Shown in pieces: positions 5,724 to 64,000 of a stretch of DNA of 64,000 nt. Positions within the stretch are counted from its first letter, which is position 1, and each line of letters starts with the position of its first letter. This DNA is from Octopus vulgaris (lineage: Eukaryota). The position numbers and the translations under genes were made by a program. The notes beneath the pieces were generated by a model. It ran no database searches and was not told where the DNA came from. It was given only the letters and a program-made list of their open reading frames with translations. The stretch covers positions 61,132,001 to 61,196,000 of the forward strand of contig OX597826.1 in NCBI GenBank assembly GCA_951406725.2, in the 5' to 3' direction.

Positions 5724-6440
5724 CATACATACATACATACATACATACATACATACATACATACATACATTTCTTGCAGCAATGTTGTTGCAGTTTCGAC
5801 CCCTTTGTGACAAAACCGTCCAACTAGCCGAGTTGAAGGCGGCGAACTGGCAGAATCTTCAGCAGCCTAAATGCAATGCTTTTATGTTTTGAATTCAAGC
5901 TCTGCCGTTGTCGACTCTGCCTTTCATTCTTTCGGGGTTGATAAAATTAGTACAATTTACAGACTGGGGTCGGTTCAATTGACTTACCCGCCTCCCGAAA
6001 ACAGCCGGCTTTGTGCCAAAATTTAAAATCAATATCTTAGTTGGGTTGATGTCGGCGAACTAGTAAAATCGTTACTACACCAGGTAAAATGCTTAGCGGC
6101 ATTTCGCCCAGCTTACGTGTTCGGAGTTCAAATTCCGTGATGTCGACTTTGCTTTTATTCTTTCGGTGTCGATAAAAACAAGCTCTGCAACGAGTTCAAT
6201 GTAGTCGACTTATTCGTTGTCCCGACATTTCAGACATTGCACCTATATTAGAAAGGAATATCTTAGCTGGCCCTCGTATGCATATATGTATATGCACAAA
6301 GACAGATGGATGTATGGGCGGGCGGGCGGACGGACGGACGGACGGACGGACGGACGGACGGACGGACGGACGGACGGACGGATGGATGGATGGATGGATG
6401 GATGGATGGATGGATGGATACCTACCTACCTACCTACCTA

Positions 6441-6848
6441 CCTATTTCTTTATTACCCACAAGGGGCTAAACATAGAGGGGACAAACAAAGACAGACATA
6501 GGTATTAAGTCGATTATATCGACCCCAGTGCATAACTGGTACTTAATTTATCGACCCCGAAAGAATGAAAGGTAAAGTCGACCTCGGCGAAATTTGAACT
6601 CACAACGTAACGGCAGACAAAATACCTTTTTCTTTACTACCCACAAGGGGCTAAACAAAGAGAGAACAAACACGGACAGACAAACGGATTAAGTCGATTA
6701 TATCGACCCCAGTGCGCAACTGGTACTTATTTAATCGACCCCGAAAGGATGAAAGGCAAAGTCGACCTCGGCGGAATTTGAACTCAGAACGTAGCGGCAG
6801 ACGAAATACCGCTAAGCATTTCGCCCGGCGTGCTAACGGTTCTGCCAG
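6441..6848 (-). mobile_element. tRNA-related SINE 'family B' with a tandemly duplicated 3' part
   Basis: GGCAGAA..GTTAGCAC..GAGTTCAAATTCC head and GCCTTTCATCCTTTCGGGGTCGA..AAGTACCAG central domain (resembles the Meta-SINE domain, from memory). Other copies at about 5835-6250, 11870-12078, 14367-14572, 21790-21990, 24400-24590, 35516-35755, 41040-41450, 56830-57240, 60657-60930 and 61570-61805. Confidence 0.85.
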
Positions 6849-14059: not shown

Positions 14060-14262
14060 ACGGAGATGTACTCGCATAGCAAGTAATTTTATCTGAGATC
14101 GTGTGCTGAAACGAAAACAATTGCAGCGTGGAAGGTGTTTATAAGCCATTTAAGAAACACACAAAAGCCGTTCGATTCACTTCAACATTTAAGTTTAATT
14201 TGTCAAAATATTTTCGTCGCTAAAATCCGCGACCTGTTCACTGACAAAAATCCGTGCTGCAT
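14060..14262 (-). mobile_element. Short dispersed repeat carrying a hammerhead motif (14199-14248); a degenerate relative lies at about 49895-49990
   Basis: Shared TAGCAAGT..ATC.GAG..C.TGTG.TG.AAC.GAAACAA segment; hammerhead fold described in findings. Confidence 0.55.
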
Positions 14263-15210
14263 CTCATAATCAAACTTTACAAGAGTTACCTCCCTCTAAA
14301 GTATTATCTCCCTTTAAATAAAATGAACGTATATAACACGGTTTCTCTCTCCACTACAACAAATATACCTATTTCTTTATTGCTCACAAGGGGCTAAACG
14401 CAGAGGGGACAAACAAGGACAGACAAACGGATTAAGTCGATTATATCGACCCCAGTGCTTAATCGGTACTTAATTTATCGACCCCGAAAGGATGAAAGGC
14501 AAAGTTGACCTCGGCGGAATTTGAACTCAGAACGTAATGGCAGACGAAATACGGCTACGCATTTCGCCCGACGTTGCTCAAGACTACATGCTTGTTTGAT
14601 CTTTGGTTTGTTTTTTGTGGGGGGGTTTAGCCATCGGATTGCTAAAAGAAAATAATAGCCTGCTCCATTTTCTAGAATTAGGCCACCGAAACCTACAACC
14701 GTTTATTTAAATCGACAATAAATTCTATTCCTCTAGTGATCCCTTTAATTTACTCTTTTACTTGTTTCAGTCATTTGACTGTGGCCATGCTGGAGCACCG
14801 CCTTTAGTCGAACATATCGATCCGAGGACATATTCTTTGTAAGCCCAGTACTTATTCTACCGGTCTTTTTTGCCGAACTGCTAAGTTACTGGGACGTAAA
14901 CACACCAGCATCGGTTGTCAACCGATGTTGGGGAGACAAACACAGACACACATATACATGTATATATATATATACATATATGCGACGGGCTTCTTTCAGT
15001 TTCCATCTACCAAATCCACTCACAAGGCTTTGGCCAGCCCGAGGCCATAGTAGAAGACACTTGCCCATGGTGCCACGCAGTGGGACTGAACCCAGAACTA
15101 TGAGGTTCGTAAGGAAGCTACTTACCACACAGCCACTCCTATGCCTATAGTTTACATAACAATAGGAAATATTGGTAACATAAAGAAAATTAACTTCTTT
15201 AATCACACAG

Positions 15211-30600: not shown

Positions 30601-33600
30601 CTCATAACAGAACACACTGGATAAGGTTGTTTAAATTACATAGAATCTCCACAGTAGGGTGGAGTGAAAATAAAAAATTGTGGAAATTGAAAATGCCTGA
30701 GGGTTAAAATGTTGCTATATTTGATTACTAGAAAAATGCTAAATTTTTGCTGAGATCAATCAAGAACATTTACTCCCTCAAGCCCCCTAAACTCCAGAAA
30801 TGGGAGATTTTTGTAAATTTTTTGCAATAGTGGAGTTAATGGGTTTGATGGAGTAAATGCCCTTGACTGCTCTAAACAAAAATTTTGCATTTTTTCCAAT
30901 AATAATATATATCAAGATTTGAGGCCTCAGGCATATTCAATTTCCATAATTTTTTATTTTCACTCTACCCTAGATTATATGGAATCGAAATTGAACCAAT
31001 CCTATGACTGGCACCCGGCAGATGACAGGACCCCTGGACTGGAGATACGTAAAAAGCACTATCCAAATCATGGCCGATGCCAGCGCCGCTTCGACTGGCT
31101 TCCGTGTCGGTGGCACGTAAAAAGCACCATCCGAATCGTGGCCGAAGCCAGTGCCGCCTCGACTGGCTTCCGTGCAGGTGGCGCGTAAAATGCACCAATC
31201 CGACCGTGGCCGATGCCAGCCTCGCCTGGCACCAGTGCAAGTGGCACGTAAAAAGCACCCACTACACTCACGGAGTGGTTGGCGTTAGGAAGGGCATCCA
31301 GCTGTAGAAACATTGCCAGATAAGACCGGAGCCTGGTGCAGCCTTCTGGCTTCCCAGATCCCTGGTCGAACCATCCAACCCATGCTAGCATGGAGAACGG
31401 ACGTTAAACGATGATGATGATGATGATGATACCCGCGCATACACGCACACATACACGTGTGATAGGGTGGAGTGAAAATAAAAAATTGTGAAAATTGAAA
31501 ATGTCTGAGGTCTAAAATCTTGCTATATATTATTACAGGAAAAATGCAAATTTTTTGCTTAGATCAGTCAAGGGCATTTACTCCCTCAAAACCAAGCAAA
31601 CTCTGCTATTGTAAAAAATTTACAAAAATCCCCCATTTTCAGAGTTTAGGGGGCTTGAGGGAATAAATGCCCTTGATTGATCTCAGCAAAAATTTTGCAT
31701 TTTTCTAGTAATCAAATATAGCAACATTTTAGCCCTCAGGCATTTTCAATTTTTTTATTCTCACTCCACCCTACTCCACAGTCTACAAAGCAACAAATGA
31801 ACATCCATATCAGTCATAGGCATACTGTGGGTCTGCAAGGCTTTCTGAAAGGCATGCCTAACAAAAGATTATTCTTTCTTTTATTCTTTTACTAGTTTCA
31901 GTCACTTGACTGCGGCCATGCTGGAGCACTGCCTTTTGTTGAACAAATCGACCCCCAGGACTTATTCTTTGTAAACCTAGCACTTATTCTATTGGTCACT
32001 TTTGCTGAACTGCTAAGTTATGGAGACGTAAACACAGCAGCATCAGTTGTCAAGTGATGGGAGGGGACAAACACAGACACACACAAGGGTGACCCCCTCC
32101 AGCCATGAATGACCATGGGATTGCACCTGGAAAGTTATGCTCCAAGGCACAAGTCCTGGGAAGGTTGTTTATGGAAGACCAGCTGTCGCCCATGCATACC
32201 AGCGTCCCCTCTCCACACCACCAATGTTATCCAAGGGAAAGGCAAAAGCCAATGCAGCTTGGCACCAGTGATGTCGCAACTCATTTCTACAGCTGAGTGA
32301 ACTGGAGCAACATGAAATAAAGTGTCTTGCTCAAGAACACAACATGCAGCCCAGTCCAGGAATCGAACTCACAACCTCACGATCGTAAGCTCGATGTTCT
32401 AACCACTGAGCCATGCGCCTTCGCTACAGACACAGACACACAAATATATATATATACGATGAGCTTCTTTCAGTGTCCGTCTACCAAATCCACTCATACG
32501 GCTTTGGTCAGCTCAAGGCTATAGTAGTTACCATTTGCCCAAGATGCCACGCAATGGAACTGAACCCGGAACCATGTGGTTAGAAAGCAAGCTTCTTATC
32601 ACACAGCCATGAATTTTCTTTTAGTAGTATATAGCCTGTCTGAGTTATGCCTCATACAGCCCACTTCTTGGAAAAGGTTGCTTATAAAATCAAAAGTAGT
32701 GTAGCAGCCTTGACTTCCCAAAACATTTTTTCACACTCAGAATGGCTAAGGTATGGAATATTCTACCCATATCAACTGATAGTTGTCAAGATACAGAATC
32801 CTTCAAAGTTACCATGCTTCCTGAAGTTCACCAACACTAATCCTGAATGTACCTATGCACCCTTTCTCGTTTACGGCTGTTTCACTGTTCACTTTCCCAT
32901 TGTTTTATGGTTTATTCTGCATACTCACCATGTATTTTTTGCTGTCTTTCTTTTTGTGCCCCACCTTTAACCCTTTTCAAACAAGTTGTAATGTGCTATA
33001 TACAATAAGCTCAACCTCATCAACATCACAGTGACTGCTAAACATTCTCGAATTAACATTAGTATTTTAAACCTCTCATAAACTGGGCCCATGTCTAACT
33101 TTACCTTCCACCTGGGCTCCCGAACAAAAAAATAAATAGCTGCATATACAGCTCAGGAGTAACAATTGCAGGCAAACTAATGGACAGAATCAGTTGCATC
33201 TTTTTCTGCATCGTGTTGGTCATTGCCACTGAACTGGGAATCCAACAGAGATGGCATTTAAGCTATTCCTGCTACAGCAAGATTGAGGCAAGACAGAATT
33301 AAAAAGAAGGAAAGACACCTTGGATAAGACACTTTGGATAACAGCCATGGCTGTGTGGTAAGAAGTTTGGTTCCCAATCATATGGTTCCAGGTTCAGTCC
33401 CAATGCATGGCACCTTGGGCAAGTGTCTTCTGCTATAGTCTCAGGCCAACCAAAGTCATGCATATATGAATATATGTGTGTGTGTGTGTTGGTTTCCTCC
33501 TCACTGCTTGACAACCGGGGTTGGTGTGTTTACATCTGTATATTAGCAGTTCAGCAAAAGAGACCGATAGAATAATTACATAAGTACTAGGCTTAAAAAC

Positions 33601-50600: not shown

Positions 50601-53600
50601 ATGTTGATTGACATTCATCACATTCTTTTGGTCTGCTTACAGCTTTGTATACATCACTGTCATCATTCCACTATTTTCTTATCCTTTTCCTTTTCTTCCT
50701 TCTTTTCTTGAAGGATAATTCTATATCTCTACAAACCCCATTAATGACATATAAGGTATTTTAGTACATTTCTGTCTTGTGATACAAGTCCTACAAAAAC
50801 TAAGAGATTTATAAAAAATCTATCAATAAATCAATAATACTCCTGCTCGGATATTCTTTGAATCAACAAAAATGTATCACACTTGACATATTAACAATAG
50901 CCAAATCTCCCTCCAGTAACACCCTATCATCTTGAACAATATAGTCCTAAAATATAGACTATCACTTAAGAAAAAAAAAAACAAAAAAAAAACAATGTAT
51001 AATATGAAATTATATTTGCATAAACAAGAGATGATCGGAGCTTGAAGATCTTTATCATAGGTTTGTCTGTTAATTCAGAGGTGACTAGAATATGATTTGA
51101 GAAAGATTTGTCTGCTATTTCTAGTAAGTAATTTCACTGGTTCATGATATTCCAAGTTGTGAGCCAGGGCATTGTATATTGAACTTCTGCATTTCTTAAT
51201 CTGAACCTCACTAGAGCACTCTTAAGGAATATCAACATGTGACACCTGTGTCGCAGTTTAGCTGCAGCTGTTGACAGAATGAAAACAAATGGTCAGTCTA
51301 CCTACAAATATAGGGGCTGCACACTATATTTTGTAAGGTTAACCTCACATAACAATGAGGGAAACAATGAAACAGTTCTTTTTTCACAGTGTTACCAGTA
51401 TTTGATGCCAGCTAAACTGTACTGTGGTACCCTTATATAGATAGGTGAACTGAGCCTTTTACAGTTACATCCAATATCATGAACATGGGCACAGTACAGT
51501 GTCATGATACAAACAACTGGTCCCTATATCATCATCATCATCATCATCATCGTTTAACATCCGTTTTCCATGCTGGCATGGGTTGGACGGTTTGACTGAA
51601 GACTGGAGAGCCAGCAACTACACCAGGCTCCAATCTGATCTGGCAATGTTTCTACAGCTGGATGCCCTTCCTAACACCAACCACTCCAAGAGTGTAGTGG
51701 GTGCTTTTTATGTGCCACCAGCATAGGAGCCAATCAGGCGGGCCTGGCATCGGTCACGTCCAGATGGTGCTTTTTACATGCCACCAGCACAAGAGCCAGT
51801 CAGGGGGTACTGGCATCGGCCATGATTGGTTGGTGCTTTTTACATGCCACCGGCACGGGAGCCAGTCAGGTGGACCTGGTATCGACCACATTCAGATGGT
51901 GCTTTTTACGTGCCACCGGCATGGAAACCAGTCAGGGGGCACTGATCACAGCTACGATATTGGTTTCACTTGACTCAGCAGGTCTTCTCAAGCATATCAT
52001 ATCACCCTACACAACAGGGGTATTCTTAGCAGGGCCGGACATGCATGGTTGTGATCTATATCCAAGCAATTCCAATGCAAATAAACAACTGGTCCCAATG
52101 AGCTTATCTATCTCCAAGCTACTCCACTGCAGACATCTGATACATTTGGTGCAATTATAAATGTGCATCAGATGCACAATGAGCAGTAAATCCATAACCC
52201 ACAAAACCATCTACCTGAACAATAACAAAGTACTCCTACTTGTGGTTAACTGCACCAAATTGCACTGGTTCATAGCACAATGACAGTCAGCTAGGACACA
52301 GACAAGATTAAGAGTTTTAAGAATTGAAGGGGTTTCAGTGAAACAACAGTGCAGGGAAGATTAGTAAAAAAAAATGAGGGAGCAGGAATCTGAGAGCAGG
52401 TGGGAAAGAATTTGTTTACCTCTTGGTCTTTTCTTTCTTTCTTCTCTTTCACTTGCTGCTCAGCTTCCTCTTCTTCCTCTTCCTCGTCATCATCATATGT
52501 TGGCGACAATGAAGACACAAAAAACCAGAGCAGGTCGTGGATGCAAGTAGCTTGGGTGACGGTCCTCACTAACCAGTTTAAACCCTGCGAAAGGAGAAAA
52601 AAAACCACAAATTACTATTATTTATTGGAATGTACTCACTAAGAAATTTAGAAGTTTAAAAGAAATTGTCTCTGTTTCAGGGGTTCTGCTACAGAATTAA
52701 AAGAGTTTGAAAACGCGGAGAAAAAAAAAAATTAGAGACATAAAAGGAAGAAAGGAAAAAAACAAAGATACAGAAAGAAAACATAGAGACAAAGATAAAG
52801 AGAGATGAAAAAGGGTATGTATCGCCACATAGTTAAAATAATCTAATGTCTGTGAGTGACCCTTTTCTACAAGAAAGCATAGTAGTTAACTCACTATACT
52901 ACCAGCATTTCTGTCAACAATTACATTAACCATCTCTACTGAGTCTGACCTTTTATGGAAAAAGTAAAACTATCAATTAATTTACACTACAGAACCAACT
53001 CTTTCTGCTATCATCTTCCTCTGGAAGAGTACTGCAGTACTCAGAAGAACAGCTTATTTGCTTATTTGTCTTTCAAACTGAATATCACACAGATAGAAGG
53101 AGAGAGAGCAATGGAAAGAAAACAGATAATGACGGAGGAGATTGACAGATACATAGATAGAAAGTTAGAGACTCCTACAGAAAGGAAATAGATAATGACG
53201 GAAGAGATTGACAGATACATAGATAGAAAGTTAGAGACTCCTACAGAAAGGAAACAGATAATGACGGAGGAGATTGACAGATACATAGATAGAAAGCTAG
53301 AGACTCCTACAGAAAGGAAACAGAAAATGACAGAGGAGACTGACAGACACATAGATAGAAAGATAGAGACTCCTACAGAAAGGAAACAGATAATGACGGA
53401 GGAGATTGACAGACACATAGATAGAAAGATAGAGACTCCTACAGAAAGGAAACAGATAATGACAGAGGGGACTGACAGACACATAGATAGAAAGTTAGAG
53501 ACTCCTACAGAAAGGAAACAGATAATGACGGAGGAGATTGACAGATACATAGATAGAAAGATAGGGACTCCTACAGAAAGGAAACAGAAAATGACGGAGG

Positions 53601-56217
53601 AGATTGACAGACACATAGATAGAAAGTTAGAGACTCCTACAGAAAGGAAATAGAAAATGACGAAGGAGATTGACAGACACATAGATAGAAAGATAGAGAC
53701 TCCTACAGAAAGGAAATAGAAAATGACGGAGGAGATTGACAGACACATAGATAGAAAGATAGAGACTCCTACAGAAAGGAAACAGATAATGACGGAGGAG
53801 ATTGACAGATACATAGATAGAAAGTTAGAGACTCCTACAGAAAGGAAACAGATAATGACAGAGGGGACTGACAGACACATAGATAGAAAGTTAGAGACTC
53901 CTACAGAAAGGAAACAGATAATGACGGAGGAGATTGACAGACACATAGATAGAAAGATAGAGACTCCTACAGAAAGGAAACAGATAATGACGGAGGAGAT
54001 TGACAGACATATAGATGGAAAGATAGAGACTCCTGTAGATCTTACCTGCATTGCAAACACTCTACAGATAGCTTTCCTCAATGCGTGTCTCATGGCAATC
54101 TGCAGATTATCCAAGTCATGACGCTGAACTACAAACGCCATCACAGGACGGTTTAAGGTTTTCTCATTGTGGCCGTTGTCCCGAGAATTCTTTGATTTAT
54201 CAACAAGGCTGATCAACCGACTCATTGCTGCTGATGGGTTTTTCAATAATGACATTCCACCGTCTGAAACAACAAAAATATTGACATCAATAACGGTGGT
54301 GACGATAATTAAAATTTACAACTTGTGACCATATGAAGAGTATAATGGAATTGTTTTGGGGTGGTGCCTAGCACTACATTGATAGGAGAGTGTTGTTGTT
54401 CAAGCTCATGGTACCCCTGATCAGACAGGCAGATATACAATCAAAGAGTGTCTTAGATGTTGCTAACCGCTATCAAATGAAGTGTAACAGTAGTGAGGTG
54501 GAAATAGTGGTAATGGTGGTGGAAATGTAGTGGTGGTGGTGGTGGTGGTGGTGATGGTGGTGGTGGTGGTGGTGGAAGCAATAGTGTTTAGAATTAGGTG
54601 TTTGATTGAAAGGAGGATCTGTGATTACATTCCAGCCTTGATGATCCCCTTCTTTTTGTAGGACATGAATCAATTTATCCTTCCTGTTTCAGTGTCCTTT
54701 AAGGGAATTTCGCTTCTATTTCTAGCAGATCAATCAGCTTTCTAGAAGCTTCTGCCCATCACTATGGTGTAGAGTGGTATATGGCACTGCAGCTATGGTA
54801 GTGGTAGCTATATGATGGTGCTATAATTTAGCCCCAGGTTAGTTCAGTCCTGATCATGCAGACATGATGATCAAAGGTGTTCTAGCCATGACAAGCTATG
54901 AATAAAGAGATATGATTGTGTGGTTAAGAAGTTTGCAATCACATATTTCTGTGGGTTCAATCCTATATAGAGGCACACAGGGAAAGCATTTTCCACCAGA
55001 ACTTGGGGCAACCAAATTTTGCAAATAAAATTTAAGAGACATAAAACAGAAATTTTACTGAATGTGTTTGTGTGTGTGACAGAGTGAGAGAGAGAGAGAG
55101 AAAGATAGGGTGGGAGAACTGGTCTGTTGAATAAAAATTGTTAGCAGCATTTGTTTCCAGCCAATTCGCTTTCCTTTATAACCATGTTCACTGTACTTTT
55201 CTATGAGACCAGTAACAAATGTAGCAAAGCACGGGGTTTGATATACCCAACTAAAAACCTACAGAAGGAGTGCCCCAACATAGAGGACAAACATTTGCGA
55301 ATGATTCTGAGGACTCATCTAATCTGCTGCTTATGACTAAAGAATAATGGGAGGGGTGTGATGATGTGGTCTTCATGTCAGTAGTGCTTAGGATTGTTGT
55401 TGTTTTTTTTGTTTGTTTTTTTTTTCAGTTGGGATACTTTTGAGATCTCTGCTGTTGCAGAAATACACCAATTCAAAGACTCTCTTGCTTTCCAAAGACG
55501 ACTTACTCTGAGGCAAAAAAATTTTTTCCTGTCACCTAGATAAATCTTTCATTCAATCAGCTTAGTGTGAAATATTCTAAGCCAGCCAAAAGACATTACT
55601 TTAAATTGATTCCTTACTAAGAATACACACACACACACACACACATATATAAATATATACAATTGTAAGATCCAAGGATCTATGTGTAGGAAGTTTACAA
55701 CCTTTGAGCAGTTCGTGGTGGTAGGTATAAAAAAACAATGCTCAGGAACAATAATAATTTATTGACATCGAAGGTTGTAGGCTTTTGTCATATCAAAGTT
55801 CGATAAGCTGAAAAATATTTATGTATAGCTCATGGTTAGCAACTAAAGTTAATTATTACATCAGAGGATCTACTAGCTAGAAAATATATGTAGCCTAGAT
55901 ATTACCTGTTCTACTCCCTCAGCTTGGAAATATATATATATATATATAATTAATATATATATATATATATTGGTAAAAATGGTAAGATAACAAAAGAAAG
56001 AAAAGAGACCTCAATATTATGTAAATAGAGGAAATTCATCTGTAAAATAATATGTAACAATTATTCAAGTTTCGGATGCTGAGGTGGAAATCCACAACAC
56101 CATCTCTTCGGTTATCTGGCCAGATAACCGAAGAGATGGTGTTGTGGATTTCCAACTCAGCATCCAAAACTCGGAGTTTTATTTTGGCTATTGAATAATT
56201 GTCACATATTATTTTAC

Positions 56218-58351: not shown

Positions 58352-61300
58352 TACATTGGGTTGTCAAGAAAGTAATTTCACTTACTGCAAATAGATAGAG
58401 TTATGATTTCATTTAATGACTTTTGTCCATATTATGATATTTTTCCTTTTATATATATATAGACACATACAAACACACACATTATTATTATTATTATATA
58501 ATAATATATATATTCTACTATGTTGAGTACCTTTTTCTTTTGTTTTATCCATTCACTCGTGCGTGTGTATAAAGTCTGAAACTACACATACAGACAAGTA
58601 TACATGCACACACAAATATTAACATAGATATATATATACATGAGCACATACACACACACATACATGAGCACACAAGTACAAAAACAACATACACACAGAA
58701 GAACAAGCACACACAAGTAGACACACAAACATACAATACACTCGCTAAAAGATTTGCCCTTCGTTTCTCACGTGTCATCATAGAAGCAGAGTGAACGTAA
58801 AGAGCATACTAACCTGAGGGCTTGGAGGTGATATGTTTGAAGGAGGTCGAAGTTCCTGGCTGAGGGAGCCAGATCTGGCTAAAGGACTGTGACGTGGTTC
58901 AGTAGGTAACCGAGGACGATAGCGCTGCTGTTTCTGAGCCAAACTCAATGACCCTGAACGCACAAACACTCGTTCCTCTGTGTCAAAGAATATGTCCTCG
59001 GCGAATGCAGAGTCAGAAGCCTGAGCACCTTGCTGTGTCAAATACTGGAATGGCGCCATGGGGAAAGGGTTGAGGTCAGTGCCGATGTCTTCACTGACAC
59101 TCGGTAGGAACATGTCCAAACGATTAAGGCTATTTGGAGTTCTTTTGTGACTGTGCGAGGGAAGACTGATTCCAGCGGCGCTTGCCAAATCCAACAGAAA
59201 CATTGCATTGTTTTTAAGAATTATATGAGATTCCATAGGAATCAAGTTCGACTGCTGCTTGTTGGCGAAGATTTTTTTCTTATACTTTCGTGATTTCTCT
59301 TTGTCTTTCTGCGCTTGTCGACGTTCACGCAAGTACTTATCCCTGCACCGATCACAGATCAGGTACCAACTGCTGCCTCCAAAGCCCCCCTCTCCACAGT
59401 TACCGGCCCATCCACCACAGAAGTTGCCACCACTATTGTAGCCCTTGCCTCCAGCATATCGGCCGCAGCCAGGATGCGAGCGGCGCATATGGTAGGTGAC
59501 AGGATGTGGATACATAACACCACACAGTTCGCACATTGTCTCACGCTCAGCGCCAGCTGTGCCGGCAAACAGTACACCCGCTGCTTCTCCAAACAAGTTA
59601 CCCCGCACAATTGGCTTCAGGTCACGTTTTTTCTTTGTTCGTTTCTCTTTTGTTTTTTCCTTCTCCTTCTTCTCGACTTTCTTTGTCTTCATGCTTAGGG
59701 CAGGACTTGGGTAGATCATGTCCTTTGATATCACATTGAGCATTGTTGATGCCAGTTCCTCCCAGAATCCCACCAAATGATACAACGTTGCTGGGAGTTT
59801 TGCATCCTCTCGCTCGTAAGTACCATTCTCAGAATGGATCAAGAGAGGGTCTTCCTGGTAATTCACACTACCCTCAGATTTGTGCCGTCCAAGGATTGGT
59901 TTCGGTTGTTTCAAAGGATCTATTTTCACAGTATCTATCTTAACCTGGTCCAACTTGCCTGAGTCAGTCTGCAGAGTGCCTAATCGGACACTGTCCTGTC
60001 TACTGACATCGGAATCTGAATCAACACTATCCTGGTGTTCAATGAAGAACCTAACACGAGTCTCGTTCAAATTGTCTCCCTTCTTGGACGGTTCCTTTTT
60101 GATTTCTTTCGACGATTCAGCTGGCTGGCGGACTTTCGTTTTCTCTGACTTTTTGTCGTCAACTTGAGACATTTCCTTAGATAAATTTGGATGAAATTTC
60201 AAAAAAGATGCACAGGCCATTGCATCATGCACGATTCCTTCGTGCCACAGAAAAGCGGCGTAGACAGCACGGAGACATTCGGCAACAGACGGTGAGAGAG
60301 CTTCCTTCACCGGCTCACGGGTCCTCTCAAAGATCATGGTGGCTGAACCAGAGCGACTCCTATTGATCGGAGTGGTCTCCCTTGGTGATGGTGATGCTGC
60401 TCGTTCTCGTTTGTTTCTCAACTGTCGACCCCTGTCTTTGCGAATAGCTTTTGGAGATAACCTGTAGTAAGGAGAGTAAAAGAAAATTCAATAATATCTT
60501 GTACTGTCAATGAATGAAAAATCATGAATATATACAAAAGGGAAATCAACAATAATAATAGTTATACCAACAACAAAAATACATTAGTTACAATTGCGTA
60601 ACCGTGGTGATTAAGGCAGTGGTATTAATGATGATGATTAATTAATGATGATGAAGGCAGCGAGTTGGCAGAAAGGCGGCAAGTTGGCAGAAAGGCAGCG
60701 AGTTGGCAGAAACGTTAGCACACTGGGCGAAATGCTTAGCTGTATTTCGTCTGTCGTTACGTTGTCAGTTCAAATTCCACCGAGGTCGACTTTGCCTTTC
60801 ATCCATTCGGGGTCGATAAATCAAGTACCAGTTATGCACTGGGGGTTTATGTAATCGACTTAATACCTATGTATGTCCTTGTTTGTCCCCTCTGTGTTTA
60901 GCCCCTTGTGGGTAATAAAGAAATAGGTATTAATGATGATGATGATTATGATGACAATAATGATGAAAATGATGTTCATGATGGTGATGATGATGATGAT
61001 GATAGTGGTGGCAGAACTGGCAGTGTTTCTGACAATGATGAGGGAAATGTTCCTGAAAAAAAAACACATTTTCCTTACATATACAATTCACATAAAAAGT
61101 AAATATTTTAAATAAAAGACAAAACCAGAGAGTTGGGGTTTCTATTTTACAAGCCCAGGGTTCCAATACTAATACCCACCACAACCTGGGAGAAAGTTAC
61201 AATGATACAGAAGAGAACTGTAACGAAACGTTACAGAAAAGAAAATAAAAACACAGATTTAAACCTAGCCAAGAGATAGGTTTATGCTACGATTAGTATT

Positions 61301-64000
61301 ATCTATTTCTTTATTGCCTACAGGAGGCTAAACATTAGTAATATCACACTGCCAAAATACTATGTCTTGCAACTGGCTCATTATACCCTCATCTGTCTCC
61401 AGACTTTCTCCTAATTACAACTGAAGTTTGATCTACAAACTGGTATGTATGACAAAGGACATAGTAAAGATGATTGATAAAGTCATCAAAGGTAGGAATT
61501 GAACCCTACAACATAATGGTATATAAGCAAATATTAATGCCAGAGGAACTGGCATCAATATTTGCTTAAGGCGGCGAGCTGGCAGAAACGTTTGCACGCC
61601 GGGCGAAATGCTGAGCGGTATTCTGTCTGCCGTTACGTTCTGAGTTCAAATTCCGCTGAGGTCGACTTTGCCTTTCATCCTTTTGGGGTCGATTAAATAA
61701 GTACCAGTTACGCACTGGGGGTCGATATAATGGACTTAATCGGTTTGTCTGTCCTTGTTTGTCCTCTCTATGTTTAGCCCCTTGTGGGTAGTAAAGAAAT
61801 AGGTATGTAAGCAAATAGCATAAGGTACTTTACTTGATGCTATCGGTTCAACCCCTTACTGCCCCTAGCAATATACTTACTACTTAAGCCCTGTGTTCCC
61901 TATGGAGCATAGGCCATTGATAACTTTTTTCCACTGTCATTGATTCTAGGTTGTCTCTTCTCTCCTCTGCTAGGTCAATGTGGTTCTGAATTGTCATCAA
62001 TGCTTTTGTAATCAATTGTTCCAGAAGCTGGCATTAGCTGGTGCAGTTCATAATGTGGAGGCGCATTGGCCCAGTGGTTAGGGCAGCGGACTCGCGGTCA
62101 TAGGATCGCAGTTTCGATTCCCAGACCGGGCGTTGTGAGTGTTTATTGAGCGAAAACACTCTCTGTGTCACGCTGAATATCCCCGAGAACTACGTTAAGA
62201 GTACACGTGTCTGTGGAGTGCTCAGCCACTTACACGTTAATTTCATGAGCAGGTTGTTCCGTTGATTCGGATCAACCAGAACCCTCGTCGTCGTGACCGA
62301 CGGAGTGCTTCCAGTTCATAATATTGCAGATCAATCAGAAATTGAAGAAATCCAAAGAATGTTGTGTTTTGTTATGATGGTGATTTAGCAAACATTTTCT
62401 TTTTTTTTTTTTTAATTTCTTTGGGATTTTTTATAAGATGACCAGCACCAAATAAAGAAAACCTTAACCCAAAACAATATTTTACTTGTTTCAGTTATTT
62501 CAATGTGGCCATGCTAGAGCACCATATCAATCCCAATATTTATTTTCAAATCTGGATCCTATATTAGTGAGTTCTGTTTGTGACACTACTAAGTGATGGG
62601 ACATCGATAAAGAAGTCCTTTTTTTCCCTTCAAACACTATCAAAGAAAGACAGACTGAAACACACACACACACACACACACACAATGAACTTCTGCACAG
62701 TTTCCTACTACTAAAATCACTCACCAATCATTGGTCAACACAAGGTTTTATATAAGAGTGGTATTGAACACAAGACCAAGTACTTGCTTAGCAAATTTCT
62801 TGACCACACAGCCATACCTCCACCTCCAATATTTTACCGTTATATCAGGAACATGCTGGCAAGGTAGGCAGTGCCTACTTTGGATAAAATAGATCGATAA
62901 CATTTTCCCGTCATGGTAAAACATGCACCTTATCATGAAAGTTACTCTAGTTACTATGTATAAAATGAAAATATTTTATTATTTTAAAGATTAGGTAGGC
63001 ATAATTCATCCCTGCTTTTCAATTTCAGTATTTAAGCTACGCATAGTACTGCTGTAGTACATGTGCTGCGTACATTCCTACAACAATGTTTTATTTACAT
63101 GCTATAAAGGCAGAAGTAAATCTGTCTACAACTCAGTCACGTGCCTGTGGTTTGCTTATTTTTTGTATGTTTTACTACATAGAGGTCACCACTGCCTGCC
63201 CTGAGTAATTACTGACGGCACGTGCCTGCATTATATCTACTCTGGCCTCACTGATGGCACTGTTAATCTAACAGAAAACCTCTCTAAGATCAGAGAACCA
63301 GTTGTGCATGTGTGTGCATATATATTGTAACTACACTCACGGAGTGGTTGGCGTTAGGAAGGGCATCCAGCTGTAGAAACATTGCCAGATTAGACTGGAG
63401 CCTGGTGCAGCCTTCTGGCTTCCCAGAACCCCGGTCGAACCGTCCAACCCATGCTAGCATGGAGAACGGACGTTAAACGATGATGATGAAGCTGAGAATA
63501 TGTTGTGCCTCTTGAGTTTCAAGCCAGTGAGATCTTCAAGCGAAATGAGATATGTCTGAGGATTACAGTGGCATGAAACTCCCGTTGCAAAGCAAACTCT
63601 CAGCTTTTGGTTTCAATAAAACAGAAAAAAAAAACCTATATCCTCTTCAGCATGTATTAAGCACTCCTTTCTGATCTGTTCAACATTATGCAACATAAAT
63701 GTGAGTATGTATGTACATACACACGCATACATGTATAGATGTGTTCTTGGAGACATTGGCTCATACTTCTGTTTTATCCTAACATGTTCTAAATAGACAC
63801 TTTCTTTGCATTTCCTCAAATGAGGAACAAAGATAATAAAAAAATAAATAAATAAAAAGCCAGAAAACCCTAAAATGAAGGATGCAGGAGAGAGAAAAGT
63901 TTCAAAGCAGGCCCTTCCTCACCTGATTGTATCATCTTTTGGTGAGACTGCACCGATATTGAAAGTGGGTTTGATTGCTGCCTCACATGTGCTGCCTCCA
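23362..64000 (-). CDS. MYCBP2: MYCBP2/Highwire/RPM-1 E3 ubiquitin ligase, 3' portion (27 exons, about 1807 aa; gene continues beyond 64000)
   Basis: Hand-spliced GT-AG exons with compatible phases. Diagnostic PHR-family motifs: [42 protein letters not shown] (DOC), [27 protein letters not shown] (RING-H2), [21 protein letters not shown] and the C-terminus [17 protein letters not shown]. Confidence 0.98.
24153..24318 (-). CDS. MYCBP2: MYCBP2 exon [32 protein letters not shown]...CPA (downstream catalytic Cys)
   Basis: TTCAG| and G|GTAGG; 166 nt, phase 0 to 1. Confidence 0.98.
24852..25068. mobile_element. piggyBac-like MITE; further copies at 37291-37510 and 50325-50540
   Basis: TIR CCCTTTCGTTAC / GTAACGAAAGGG with TTAA on both sides (perfect at 50321-50324 and 50541-50544); three highly similar copies. 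Confidence 0.9.
25389..25496 (-). CDS. MYCBP2: MYCBP2 exon [12 protein letters not shown]...[11 protein letters not shown] (upstream catalytic Cys, mediator loop)
   Basis: CTCAG| and CAG|GTGGG; 108 nt. Confidence 0.97.
25620..25900 (+). mobile_element. SINE-like 'family C' with (GAT)n tail and variable internal ~57-bp tandem units
   Basis: GGAAGGGCATCCAGCTGTAGAAAC..CCAACCCATGCTAGCATGG..AAACGATGATG. Copies at about 18668-18910 (-), 27855-28200 (-), 31005-31429 (+), 34222-34683 (+), 36840-36985 (+), 46595-46836 (+), 51528-51965 (-) and 63331-63488 (+). Confidence 0.85.
26182..26223 (-). ncRNA. Minimal type-I hammerhead motif with canonical CUGAUGA/GAAA core, sense within a MYCBP2 intron
   Basis: UAAUG-CUGAUGA-AGCC-agacuaa-GACU-GAAA-CAUG-U-U-CGUUA; stem III is the ACAUGU palindrome; one mismatch in stem II. 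Confidence 0.6.
26546..26755 (-). CDS. MYCBP2: MYCBP2 exon [12 protein letters not shown]...[12 protein letters not shown]
   Basis: TATAG| and AAG|GTAAG; 210 nt. Confidence 0.97.
26929..27305 (-). mobile_element. CR1/L2-group LINE 3' end with (TTAAC)n tail
   Basis: The minus frame reads [49 protein letters not shown], a typical CR1-group ORF2 C-terminus. Confidence 0.85.
27662..27769 (-). CDS. MYCBP2: MYCBP2 exon [11 protein letters not shown]...[15 protein letters not shown] (RING-H2)
   Basis: TACAG| and AAA|GTAAG; 108 nt; completes the C3H2C3 pattern. Confidence 0.97.
28895..29086 (-). CDS. MYCBP2: MYCBP2 exon [15 protein letters not shown]...[21 protein letters not shown] (RING start)
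   Basis: TGTAG| and CAG|GTAAG; 192 nt. Confidence 0.97.
30271..30380 (-). CDS. MYCBP2: MYCBP2 exon [17 protein letters not shown]...VCSDAECQ
   Basis: TTCAG| and CAG|GTGAT; 110 nt, phase 1 to 0. Confidence 0.95.
30655..31773. mobile_element. Two inverted hAT-like MITEs (30655-30972 and 31463-31773) enclosing a family-C SINE, all within one 8-bp TSD
   Basis: TAGGGTGGAGTGA...TCACTC(C/T)ACCCTA termini; CTCCACAG at 30647-30654 and 31774-31781. Confidence 0.85.
32087..32424 (-). mobile_element. tRNA-derived SINE nested in a family-A SINE; a relative lies at about 18095-18310 (+)
   Basis: Head GGCGCATGGCTCAGTGGTTAG..GAGTTCGATTCC, followed by GTGTTCTTGAGCAAGACACTT. Confidence 0.8.
33948..34074 (-). 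CDS. MYCBP2: MYCBP2 exon [19 protein letters not shown]...KAMVEFRE
   Basis: TACAG| and G|GTACA; 127 nt, phase 0 to 1. Confidence 0.97.
35781..35909 (-). CDS. MYCBP2: MYCBP2 exon [11 protein letters not shown]...[20 protein letters not shown] (B-box-like zinc finger)
   Basis: TTCAG| and CAG|GTAAA; 129 nt. Confidence 0.97.
36093..36257. mobile_element. Tc1/mariner-like MITE
   Basis: Imperfect TIR GTTGTGGTCAAAAGTTTGGAACAT / ATGTTCCAAACTTTAGGCCATGAC. Confidence 0.6.
37072..37179 (-). CDS. MYCBP2: MYCBP2 exon [22 protein letters not shown]...GPPR
   Basis: CACAG| and CGT|GTAAG; 108 nt. Confidence 0.96.
37722..37841 (-). CDS. MYCBP2: MYCBP2 exon [17 protein letters not shown]...CMKTPT
   Basis: GCCAG| and ACA|GTAAG; 120 nt. 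Confidence 0.95.
39125..39570 (-). mobile_element. RTE LINE 3' fragment
   Basis: ETW...[20 protein letters not shown]...RQVRFAGH, a typical RTE post-RT motif. Confidence 0.8.
39941..40028 (-). CDS. MYCBP2: MYCBP2 exon [10 protein letters not shown]...[10 protein letters not shown]
   Basis: TCCAG| and AAG|GTAAC; 88 nt, phase 2 to 0. Confidence 0.94.
40711..40997 (-). CDS. MYCBP2: MYCBP2 exon [10 protein letters not shown]...[16 protein letters not shown]...HTSS(R)
   Basis: TTCAG| and AG|GTATG; 287 nt, phase 0 to 2. Confidence 0.95.
42621..42774 (-). CDS. MYCBP2: MYCBP2 exon [24 protein letters not shown]...TASPRVQRQ
   Basis: TATAG| and CAA|GTAAG; 154 nt, phase 2 to 0. Confidence 0.96.
42950..43975 (-). 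mobile_element. Decayed RTE (BovB-like) LINE 5' part: apurinic-type endonuclease
   Basis: [39 protein letters not shown] plus flanking degenerate motifs interrupted by stops and frameshifts. Confidence 0.85.
44268..44374 (-). CDS. MYCBP2: MYCBP2 exon [21 protein letters not shown]...DGS(R)
   Basis: TCCAG| and AG|GTGAG; 107 nt, phase 0 to 2. Confidence 0.95.
44640..45117. mobile_element. Fold-back (Penelope-like non-autonomous?) element in (TA)n: arms 44724-44872 and 44982-45117, hammerhead-like motif at 44871-44923 (-)
   Basis: Inverted arms visible; CUGACGA...GAAA..GUC motif in the loop. Confidence 0.6.
45153..45365. mobile_element. mariner-like MITE
   Basis: TIR GTGCTGAAAAGTTCCTGGC / GCCAGGAACTTTTCAGCAC in a TA context. 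Confidence 0.75.
45737..45907 (-). CDS. MYCBP2: MYCBP2 exon VFGRLI...[23 protein letters not shown]
   Basis: TCCAG| and CAA|GTGAG; 171 nt. Confidence 0.96.
46196..46435 (-). CDS. MYCBP2: MYCBP2 exon [11 protein letters not shown]...[16 protein letters not shown]...[12 protein letters not shown]
   Basis: TTTAG| and CAG|GTAAT; 240 nt. Confidence 0.96.
47088..47153 (-). CDS. MYCBP2: MYCBP2 exon [22 protein letters not shown] (DOC)
   Basis: TTCAG| and CAG|GTAAG; 66 nt. Confidence 0.92.
48508..48641 (-). CDS. MYCBP2: MYCBP2 exon [17 protein letters not shown]...IDNTRDLA (DOC/APC10)
   Basis: TTCAG| and GCT|GTAAG; 134 nt, phase 1 to 0. Confidence 0.96.
48834..48924 (-). CDS. MYCBP2: MYCBP2 exon [12 protein letters not shown]...[11 protein letters not shown] (start of DOC domain)
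   Basis: ACCAG| and G|GTGAG; 91 nt, phase 0 to 1. Confidence 0.92.
49330..49476 (-). CDS. MYCBP2: MYCBP2 exon [25 protein letters not shown]...ENAQ
   Basis: TCCAG| and CAG|GTTTG; 147 nt. Confidence 0.93.
49652..49792 (-). CDS. MYCBP2: MYCBP2 exon [16 protein letters not shown]...LPLGTSLQ
   Basis: TTTAG| and CAG|GTAAG; 141 nt; absent from the ORF track. Confidence 0.95.
52420..52584 (-). CDS. MYCBP2: MYCBP2 exon [11 protein letters not shown]...[11 protein letters not shown]...KDQE
   Basis: CGCAG| and GAG|GTAAA; 165 nt. Confidence 0.95.
53112..54036. repeat. 66-bp minisatellite, about 14 copies, at the 5' end of a MYCBP2 intron
   Basis: Unit GACGGAGGAGATTGACAGA(T/C)ACATAGATAGAAAG(T/A)TAGAGACTCCTACAGAAAGGAAACAGATAAT; period 53131 to 53197 is 66. 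Confidence 0.97.
54046..54263 (-). CDS. MYCBP2: MYCBP2 exon (D)[10 protein letters not shown]...[25 protein letters not shown]
   Basis: TTCAG| and CAG|GTAAG; 218 nt, phase 1 to 0. Confidence 0.96.
56038..56221. repeat. Near-perfect palindrome (fold-back element) centred on TGGCCA at 56117-56122, inside (TA)n
   Basis: Arms are reverse complements apart from a ~20-nt asymmetric insert and a few mismatches. Confidence 0.9.
56348..56543 (-). CDS. MYCBP2: MYCBP2 exon DPLRHTHE...FQRSISE...[10 protein letters not shown]
   Basis: GACAG| and G|GTGAG; 196 nt, phase 0 to 1; FQRS and RRRxNSG motifs. Confidence 0.92.
58814..60461 (-). CDS. MYCBP2: MYCBP2 large central exon (1648 nt)
   Basis: TACAG| acceptor and CAG|GTTAG donor. 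Overlaps the 547-aa ORF with [20 protein letters not shown] and [31 protein letters not shown] motifs. Confidence 0.97.
62057..62312 (+). mobile_element. Family-D tRNA-derived SINE; its 3' body also occurs inverted at about 13588-13740
   Basis: A box TGGCCCAGTGG and B box GTTTCGATTCC; body CTACGTTAAG.GTACACGTGTCTGTGGAGTGCTCAG shared with 13.6-13.7 kb. Confidence 0.8.
63923..64000 (-). CDS. MYCBP2: MYCBP2 exon (5'-truncated by window edge): [25 protein letters not shown](R)
   Basis: Open frame ending AG|GTGAG; its phase 2 matches the acceptor at 60461. Confidence 0.8.

What the first reader, a model, noticed from the sequence alone, without database searches (positions are those of the whole stretch)
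14199..14248. Structurally complete hammerhead with a natural G3:C8 compensatory swap
The minus strand reads UUUGUCA-GUGAACA-G-GUCGC-ggauuuua-GCGAC-GAAA-AUAU-U-U-UGACAAA. It has a perfect 7-bp stem I, a perfect 5-bp stem II with G10.1-C11.1, a palindromic stem III AAUAUU (dimer-type) and cleavage triplet UUU. The core is GUGAACA instead of CUGANGA. Established: C3 and G8 form a Watson-Crick tertiary pair in the active hammerhead, and compensatory swaps can rescue activity. Both positions are exchanged here, which is unlikely from random decay and invisible to CUGANGA searches.
Basis: partly seen in the sequence, partly recalled or inferred. Interest (0 to 1): 0.8.

Follow-up and report, generated by a model that had tools for sequence, protein, structure and literature searches.

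The report
Swapped-core hammerhead in Penelope-like retroelement
This is one of thousands of genome copies of the tail end of a Penelope-type jumping gene whose hammerhead-shaped RNA carries two paired core letters swapped relative to sister elements; it likely still cuts itself slowly, but cutting is untested.

Summary
Observation confirmed. The motif lies in a 207-bp copy of the 3' end (pLTR plus tail) of a Penelope-like element (PLE). Longer copies carry an RT/GIY-YIG frame about 1.1 kb upstream. G3:C8 is the family state: 6,805 of 7,523 genome matches, also seen in runs under four organism labels. Sister elements with the same stems carry C3:G8 or U3·G8, so the swap is inherited covariation, not decay. 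Function is less certain. A mismatched G3:G8 form also spread (236 matches). The extra nucleotide is G, not the usual A/C/U. Copies show no excess of starts at the cut site (2 of 77), and the core is not significantly more conserved than its flank (p=0.28). Natural G3:C8 was not found in print (0 of 56 PLE hammerheads in Cervera 2014), but two key papers were unavailable. The engineered double mutant is known to be partly active. This scan noted similar, unsettled G3:C8 candidates on other DNA. Verdict: new natural variant of a known kind; activity untested.

The parts
14060..14266 (-). Short copy of a Penelope-like element 3' end (pLTR with hammerhead plus tail), 207 bp, young subfamily
   Evidence: About 98-99% identical to many dispersed copies; 98.6-100% to the 3' ends of RT/GIY-YIG-bearing long copies L264, L269, L272
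14264..14265 (-). Inferred transcription start (A at 14264) with an extra G at 14265, where long copies have C; possibly a reverse-transcribed cap (inferred)
   Evidence: 25 of 77 unselected arms start at element positions 1-6; G precedes AGATG in 8 of 17 short copies, p=0.008; C in 100 of 100 listed long copies
14242..14248 (-). Stem I, 5' strand
14235..14241 (-). Core nucleotides 3-9, GUGAACA (G3 = 14241, C8 = 14236)
   Evidence: family state
14234..14234 (-). Extra nucleotide (G) between A9 and stem II
   Evidence: shared by sister families; PLE consensus is H
14216..14233 (-). Stem II (5 bp) and loop II (14228-14221); the loop is the part that changed between subfamilies
14207..14215 (-). 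G12 A13 A14 A15.1 and palindromic AAUAUU (helix III as an intermolecular duplex, predicted)
   Evidence: self-duplex only -0.2 kcal/mol
14205..14206 (-). Predicted cleavage site after U17 (triplet UUU)
   Evidence: by hammerhead numbering; not shown experimentally
14199..14205 (-). Stem I, 3' strand
   Evidence: a subfamily A>G change here keeps a U·G pair (element position 64)
14060..14121 (-). Region between the two preferred 3' ends of the family (element positions about 146-154 and 204-207), the PLE tail; inferred to mark two RT start sites
   Evidence: 3' ends of 224 arms; interpretation from Frangieh 2024

Best explanation
The motif is the hammerhead-shaped element in the pLTR of a Penelope-like retrotransposon family in which the core 3:8 pair reads G3:C8 where sister elements read C3:G8 or U3·G8, and it likely still self-cleaves slowly after U17, probably only as a dimer or with help from the element's protein. 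Shown: the sequence, the family-wide G3:C8 state, the link to an RT/GIY-YIG frame, the two fixed 3' ends, head-to-head pairs and (TA)n flanks. Inferred: RNA starts about 16 nt before stem I, from an internal promoter. The PLE reverse transcriptase starts about 145 or 203 nt downstream and copies back to the RNA start, so the short copies, including this one, come from uncleaved RNA. C3:G8 became G3:C8 once, before this family split from older relatives, and was kept because position 8 needs its 2'-OH held by a Watson-Crick partner, not a particular base. Cleavage would trim the leader off multimeric or paired transcripts but is not required to make a copy.
For: Family state 6,805 of 7,523. None of 30 sampled G3:G8 loci is of the youngest type. 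Homologous families differ at both positions while keeping a pair, and stem II reads GUCGC/GCGAC versus GUCAC/GUGAC. Between subfamilies 4 of 7 non-CpG loop II sites changed but only 1 of 34 core and stem sites, and that change keeps a U·G pair (p=0.0016). G3:C8 is in older relatives (9 of 21) and in loose-end consensus of runs X1, X8, X15, X17 under organism labels A-D. The parent frame has 530 open codons with a YVDD motif, a CxxxCxxC linker and GIY-YIG (Pfam 23.1 bits, cut-off 22.6). In the Anolis PLE hammerhead the C3G/G8C double mutant partly restores cleavage and cleavage needs the protein (PMC11167929).
Against: No cleavage data and no run on record as RNA. G3:G8 has 236 matches against about 26 for the mirror change G3>C, and 3 of 9 head-to-head pairs have it in both arms, so a predicted-dead form was copied. 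Core plus stems are not significantly more conserved than the flank (1 of 34 versus 10 of 127, p=0.28). Old relatives show A3:C8 in 8 of 21 (the pattern fixed C8 and the other core letters). The extra nucleotide is G (1 of 56 in Cervera Fig. S3); G there was harmful in a viroid hammerhead (recalled, De la Pena and Flores 2001, not read). Helix III is six A-U pairs (-0.2 kcal/mol). Only 2 of 77 arms start at positions 59-65, against about 3 expected by chance. The stem II difference between families could also be CpG decay on both strands.
Confidence: 0.6

Rival explanations
1. The motif is a catalytically dead or negligible relic of the PLE hammerhead. Positions 3 and 8 drifted in source elements, G3:C8 happened to sit in the sources that spread, and the stems persist as a fold recognised by the PLE protein or simply by descent.
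For: G3:G8 was copied, and the state at position 8 is unlinked to every other diagnostic site (r2 at most 0.10). A3:C8 is common in old relatives. There is no excess conservation over the flank and no excess of starts at the cut site. Hammerhead mutants did not alter insertion in vitro (PMC11167929). Naiad PLEs thrive without canonical hammerheads (PMC8557442).
Against: Two transversions that exactly restore the pair are fixed in over 90% of matches. The other nine core letters and the stems show no subfamily-level break, while loop II turned over. The state is shared across older families and organism labels.
Confidence: 0.28
2. The conserved letters are kept mainly at the DNA level, as part of the internal promoter just downstream of the transcription start, and the pairing of 3 and 8 is incidental.
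For: Copies start 16-20 nt before stem I, so the core lies at about +24 to +35. TGTCA and GGTCRC are shared by all sister families. GGTCG fits the downstream-promoter-element consensus RGWYV (motif recalled, not from a call). An internal promoter in the pLTR is reported for Penelope (passages).
Against: A promoter would not need stem I and II complementarity, GAAA or a palindromic helix III 45-65 nt downstream. The RGWYV match is about 3 nt off the recalled spacing. The sharing was partly imposed by my search patterns.
Confidence: 0.08
3. It is a fast monomeric hammerhead stabilised by a loop II pseudoknot with the RNA 5' end.
For: The old loop II can pair with GAGAU at the 5' end of short copies (-6.2 kcal/mol).
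Against: The pairing needs the extra G that long copies lack (-2.2 kcal/mol without it) and is weak in the young loop. Helix III closes a 2-nt loop. Thousands of copies span the cut site intact.
Confidence: 0.04

Closest known systems
[quoted passage not shown]
   Same: Position near the PLE 3' end in sense orientation, extra nucleotide between A9 and 10.1, G10.1-C11.1, short palindromic helix III, frequent U17, thousands of dispersed single or inverted copies.
   Different: Core is G3:C8. Their 56 representatives are C3:G8 except two U3:A8 and one U3·G8, none G3:C8. Their extra nucleotide is H (G in 1 of 56). Stem I here is longer (7 bp).
Natural U3-A8 core covariation (Perreault 2011, PMC3088659; Schistosoma Cercyon PLEs in PMC4209133)
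   Same: Natural double change at 3 and 8 that keeps the Watson-Crick pair.
   Different: Two transversions that reverse the pair rather than two transitions; the single-step intermediates (G3:G8, C3:C8) cannot wobble-pair.
Engineered C3G/G8C double mutant, including the Anolis Poseidon (PAc) hammerhead (PMC11167929; review PMC8495972)
   Same: Identical 3:8 state; reported as partly active, with single mutants inactive.
   Different: Here it is the natural family state; its activity is untested.
EN+ Penelope-like elements with the CX2-5CxxC linker (Neptune or Nematis clades as described in PMC8557442)
   Same: RT plus C-terminal GIY-YIG in one frame, linker and CCHH-type motifs, 5' truncation, inverted partner, tail, (TA)n targets.
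   Different: Tail is about 55 nt rather than 30-40; most copies are only the last 150 or 207 nt; clade not placed on a reference tree.

Membership tests
Hammerhead ribozyme, PLE minimal/dimeric type I | Literal consensus letters C3 and G8 | tested here: not met
   G3 and C8; hence filed as a variant motif, not a standard member
Hammerhead ribozyme, PLE minimal/dimeric type I | Watson-Crick pair between positions 3 and 8 | tested here: met
   G3:C8 in 6,805 of 7,523 matches; potential to pair only, pairing itself not shown
Hammerhead ribozyme, PLE minimal/dimeric type I | U4 G5 A6 A9, G12 A13 A14, A15.1-U16.1, NUH triplet | tested here: met
   no subfamily-level variant at these sites in 107 arms
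Hammerhead ribozyme, PLE minimal/dimeric type I | Stems I and II with G10.1-C11.1; palindromic or absent helix III | tested here: met
Hammerhead ribozyme, PLE minimal/dimeric type I | Extra nucleotide after A9 is H (A, C or U) | tested here: not met
   G here; consensus CUGANGAH, G in 1 of 56; also G in the C3:G8 sister families
Hammerhead ribozyme, PLE minimal/dimeric type I | Match to an Rfam hammerhead model at gathering score | tested here: not met
   0 hits in the window
Hammerhead ribozyme, PLE minimal/dimeric type I | Site-specific self-cleavage after N17 | not testable with these tools
   needs in vitro assay or raw RNA reads; only contigs were available
EN+ Penelope-like element | RT and C-terminal GIY-YIG in one frame upstream of the pLTR | tested here: met
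   530-aa open frame in L309: GIY-YIG 23.1 bits. RT rests on the YVDD motif, homologues named RT-domain proteins and 28.9% identity to other PLE RTs; Pfam RVT_1 did not hit
EN+ Penelope-like element | 5' truncation, inverted partner, optional tail, (TA)n target | tested here: met
   13 of 26 loci have a head-to-head partner, 12 of them one arm with tail and one without; 19 of 26 have (TA)n at the 3' end
EN+ Penelope-like element | Full-length pLTR-ORF-pLTR tandem copy | tested here: inconclusive
   the four long copies examined (L262, L264, L269, L272) are 5'-truncated or cut off; 455 upstream-extended matches exist, 30 fetched
Neptune/Nematis clade | CX2-5CxxC linker before the endonuclease | tested here: met
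   CQSNCAVC in L269/L272 frames; definition from PMC8557442
Neptune/Nematis clade | Placement in an RT tree with named references | not tested
   no named reference set on hand
Non-LTR retrozyme | Head-to-tail tandem monomers | tested here: not met
   single copy in the window; sampled loci are single or head-to-head

The most novel reading that the evidence does not exclude
An active natural hammerhead with the core pair reversed to G3:C8 has been fixed in a Penelope-like lineage across several species as a slowed, dimer- or protein-gated ribozyme. One genome then holds a natural series (C3:G8, U3·G8, U3:A8, G3:G8, G3:C8) that lets one test whether cleavage matters to PLE spread.
Probability: 0.35. 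Interest if true: 0.68.

Novelty: new variant of a known kind. Interest (0 to 1): 0.5.

Why it matters
Published PLE and genome searches use CUGANGA (plus U3-A8) descriptors, so a G3:C8 family with thousands of copies is invisible to them, and PLEs scored as lacking hammerheads may hold such variants. If it cleaves, it is the natural counterpart of the classic swap experiment. The role of PLE hammerheads is still called unclear (PMC8557442). A family with paired and mismatched natural alleles of different copy number offers a direct test. If it does not cleave, it is a well-documented case of a hammerhead fold kept without catalysis.

Tried and rejected
Rfam scan: no hit. No RNA holder listed for certain; 15 of 21 listed runs are only guessed to be RNA, and all are contigs, so expression, ends and circles could not be tested. 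Joints were single contigs. A Pfam accession recalled for PLE proteins is not in the library. A GIY-YIG search of the genome found other active PLE families but not this one's parent; the parent was found through the upstream loose end. Idea that G3:G8 is the ancestral step from C3:G8 to G3:C8 within this family: not supported. Older relatives already have G3:C8, G3:G8 copies form no cluster, and the 3 in-family C3:G8 copies fit decay of G3:G8. Idea that the fixed 5' boundary is a splice product: the upstream sequence looks like a branch point and acceptor, but no constant first exon is seen before it; kept as open. Loop II pseudoknot: rejected. An ORF starting at the ATG before stem I: all three frames stop within about 35 codons in the young form (read by eye). 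Retrozyme: no tandem array. Papers not held: Lunse 2017 and Przybilski and Hammann 2007. File 1 of the Cervera supplement could not be searched.

Full report
Observation. Stems I and II are the predicted fold (also in 70-, 150- and 205-nt contexts). A descriptor allowing any Watson-Crick 3:8 pair finds this one site in the window and none at medium or strict stringency in 150 shuffles. Rfam does not detect it.

It is a repeat. The window lies in G000, a 2.8-Gb genome, and the motif sits at the 5' end of a 207-bp dispersed element, window 14266-14060. An 18-nt pattern with positions 3, 7 and 8 free has 7,523 matches (control 3). Non-G3 with non-C8 has 65, non-G3 with C8 has 219, and G3 with non-C8 has 434, leaving 6,805 G3:C8 (90.5%). 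These are arms with exact flanks, not loci, and include a few sister-family members. A pattern downstream of the motif has 8,694 matches. Among 70 arms not selected on the core, 60 are G3:C8 and 5 are G3:G8; this set includes partner arms of G3:G8-selected loci. The old-type form with G3:C8 appears in loose-end consensus of contigs from four runs under organism labels A-D (4 of 21 listed runs laid, none on record as RNA).

It is the end of a Penelope-like element. Of 224 arms, most end at element position about 146-154 or 204-207 (207 is also the end of my reference). Of 26 unselected loci, 13 have a head-to-head partner, 12 of these one arm with tail and one without, and 19 end in (TA)n. These are the PLE hallmarks described in PMC8557442 (passages); PMC11167929 (parts 1-2 of 4) ties the tail to two internal RT start sites. 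A loose end led to 455 upstream-extended matches (30 fetched). Four of these (L262, L264, L269, L272) share 1.4 kb or more upstream and carry, about 1.1 kb before the motif and on the same strand, a frame with a YVDD motif, a CxxxCxxC linker and a GIY-YIG domain. The longest open piece is 530 aa (L309): Pfam GIY-YIG 23.1 bits over a cut-off of 22.6, no RVT_1 hit, 139 homologues at E up to 1e-20, the best named one labelled Octopus vulgaris, RT-domain protein, 52%. The window copy is 98.6-100% identical to the 3' ends of these long copies. No full-length copy was retrieved.

How the short copies arise (inferred). 25 of 77 unselected arms start at positions 1-6. Long copies read C before AGATG (100 of 100 listed), short ones read G in 8 of 17 (p=0.008 against 19%). 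This fits reverse transcription to a capped RNA start about 16 nt before stem I. A splice-acceptor reading of the same boundary is not excluded. Either way the copies span the cut site, so their templates were uncleaved. Only 2 of 77 arms start at positions 59-65, against about 3 expected.

The swap is real covariation. A pattern aimed at relatives gave 372 matches; of the first 100 listed, 58 are C3:G8 and 12 are U3·G8 (counted by eye). These families are homologous through the tail and share the extra G and the stem II layout. A sister PLE (L089, 49% amino-acid identity) carries the same architecture with C3:G8 behind its frame, though this copy has C at position 9. A tree without columns 3 and 8 separates the two G8 families from this family and a set of old C8 relatives with 97% bootstrap (unrooted, short alignment). 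Of 21 matches with C8 fixed, 9 are G3, 8 A3, 3 C3 and 1 U3. Taking C3:G8 as ancestral, the reversal predates this family.

Evidence on function is mixed. For: between subfamilies 4 of 7 non-CpG loop II sites changed but 1 of 34 core and stem sites, and that one keeps a U·G pair (p=0.0016). None of 30 sampled G3:G8 loci is of the youngest type. The engineered C3G/G8C double mutant of a PLE hammerhead is partly active and protein-assisted (review PMC8495972, section 8). Against: core and stems are not significantly more conserved than the flank (1 of 34 versus 10 of 127, p=0.28). G3:G8 has 236 matches against about 26 for the mirror change (12 of the first 100 of 219). It occurs in both arms of 3 of 9 pairs (p=0.011), forms no cluster and is unlinked to other sites (r2 at most 0.10) although sites 164 nt apart stay linked (r2 0.70). 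So a form predicted to be dead was copied, in line with hammerhead mutants not affecting insertion in vitro. The extra nucleotide is G, where the PLE consensus is H. Helix III is six A-U pairs (-0.2 kcal/mol). PLE minimal hammerheads cleave poorly even as dimers.

Comparison with the known. It works like the minimal dimer-type hammerheads of PLE pLTRs (PMC4209133; main text parts 1-2 of 4 and supplement file 2 parts 1-2 of 3 read, file 1 not searchable). Of their 56 representatives none is G3:C8, two are U3:A8, one is U3·G8, 24 have U17 and one has an extra G (counted by eye). Perreault 2011 (passages) reports natural U3-A8 only. Searches for G3-C8, C3G plus G8C, G3C8/GUGANCA and natural core variants returned only engineered cases (PMC3884650 passage) or unrelated papers. 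Passages of PMC6765202, PMC6155905, PMC10085705, PMC2837043 and PMC1636495 and the abstract of bioRxiv 10.64898/2026.07.22.740005 added no natural case. Lunse 2017, which surveys many PLE hammerhead variants, and Przybilski and Hammann 2007 were not held, so a prior report cannot be excluded. This scan earlier noted unsettled G3:C8 candidates on other DNA; none matches this sequence or genome. Because the literal C3 and G8 letters fail and cleavage is untested, I file it as a variant hammerhead motif of a PLE, not as a proven ribozyme.

Verdict. A real, family-fixed reversal of the hammerhead 3:8 pair in a Penelope-like lineage; probably a slow, dimer- or protein-gated ribozyme (0.6), possibly a dead fold (0.28). 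New variant of a known kind; interest 0.5.

Noticed in passing
G3:G8 loci L031, L121-L149 (element position 31; window equivalent 14236): Position 8 switches between C and G on every old background, unlinked to neighbouring diagnostic sites, at about nine times the mirror mutation rate; cause unexplained.
   Followed up: partly
window 14238-14244: Position 3 is the centre of the palindrome TCA-N-TGA, so a micro-inversion or template switch could turn C3 into G3 in one step; speculation from the sequence.
   Followed up: no
L256-L285, 24 nt upstream of the element start: A branch-point-like CTAAC, a pyrimidine tract and CAG end exactly at the short-copy boundary, recalling the intron end at helix I in Drosophila virilis Penelope.
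   Followed up: partly
L046, L047, L048, L052, L039: The two arms of one head-to-head insertion often differ at subfamily-diagnostic sites, implying two RNA templates per insertion.
   Followed up: partly
L181:5288-5325 (+), also L186, L157, L159, L160, L163, L168, L174, L193: A young PLE family with a 781-aa RT/GIY-YIG frame (and an overlapping upstream 479-aa frame in L182, L191) carries a U3:A8 hammerhead-like motif about 100 nt before its 3' end, with weak stem I.
   Followed up: partly
L184:4800-4850 (+), L187; L189 (minus strand): Two further PLE families have hammerhead-like motifs with odd cores (CCGAAGA, i.e. U4 to C; and CUUGAAGA), seen by eye.
   Followed up: no
L089, minus-strand positions 970-1030: Sister PLE with a C3:G8 motif of the same architecture; this copy has C at position 9.
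   Followed up: partly
window 58778-60487 (-): 569-codon stop-free frame with no Pfam hit.
   Followed up: partly
window 14340-14600, 6439-6810, 60830-60928, 61706-61804: Copies of another abundant short repeat, SINE-like, one directly beside the element; tandem 184-bp pair at 6439-6810.
   Followed up: no
window 53114-54034, 51700-51944, 31047-31259: 66-68-bp minisatellite arrays.
   Followed up: no
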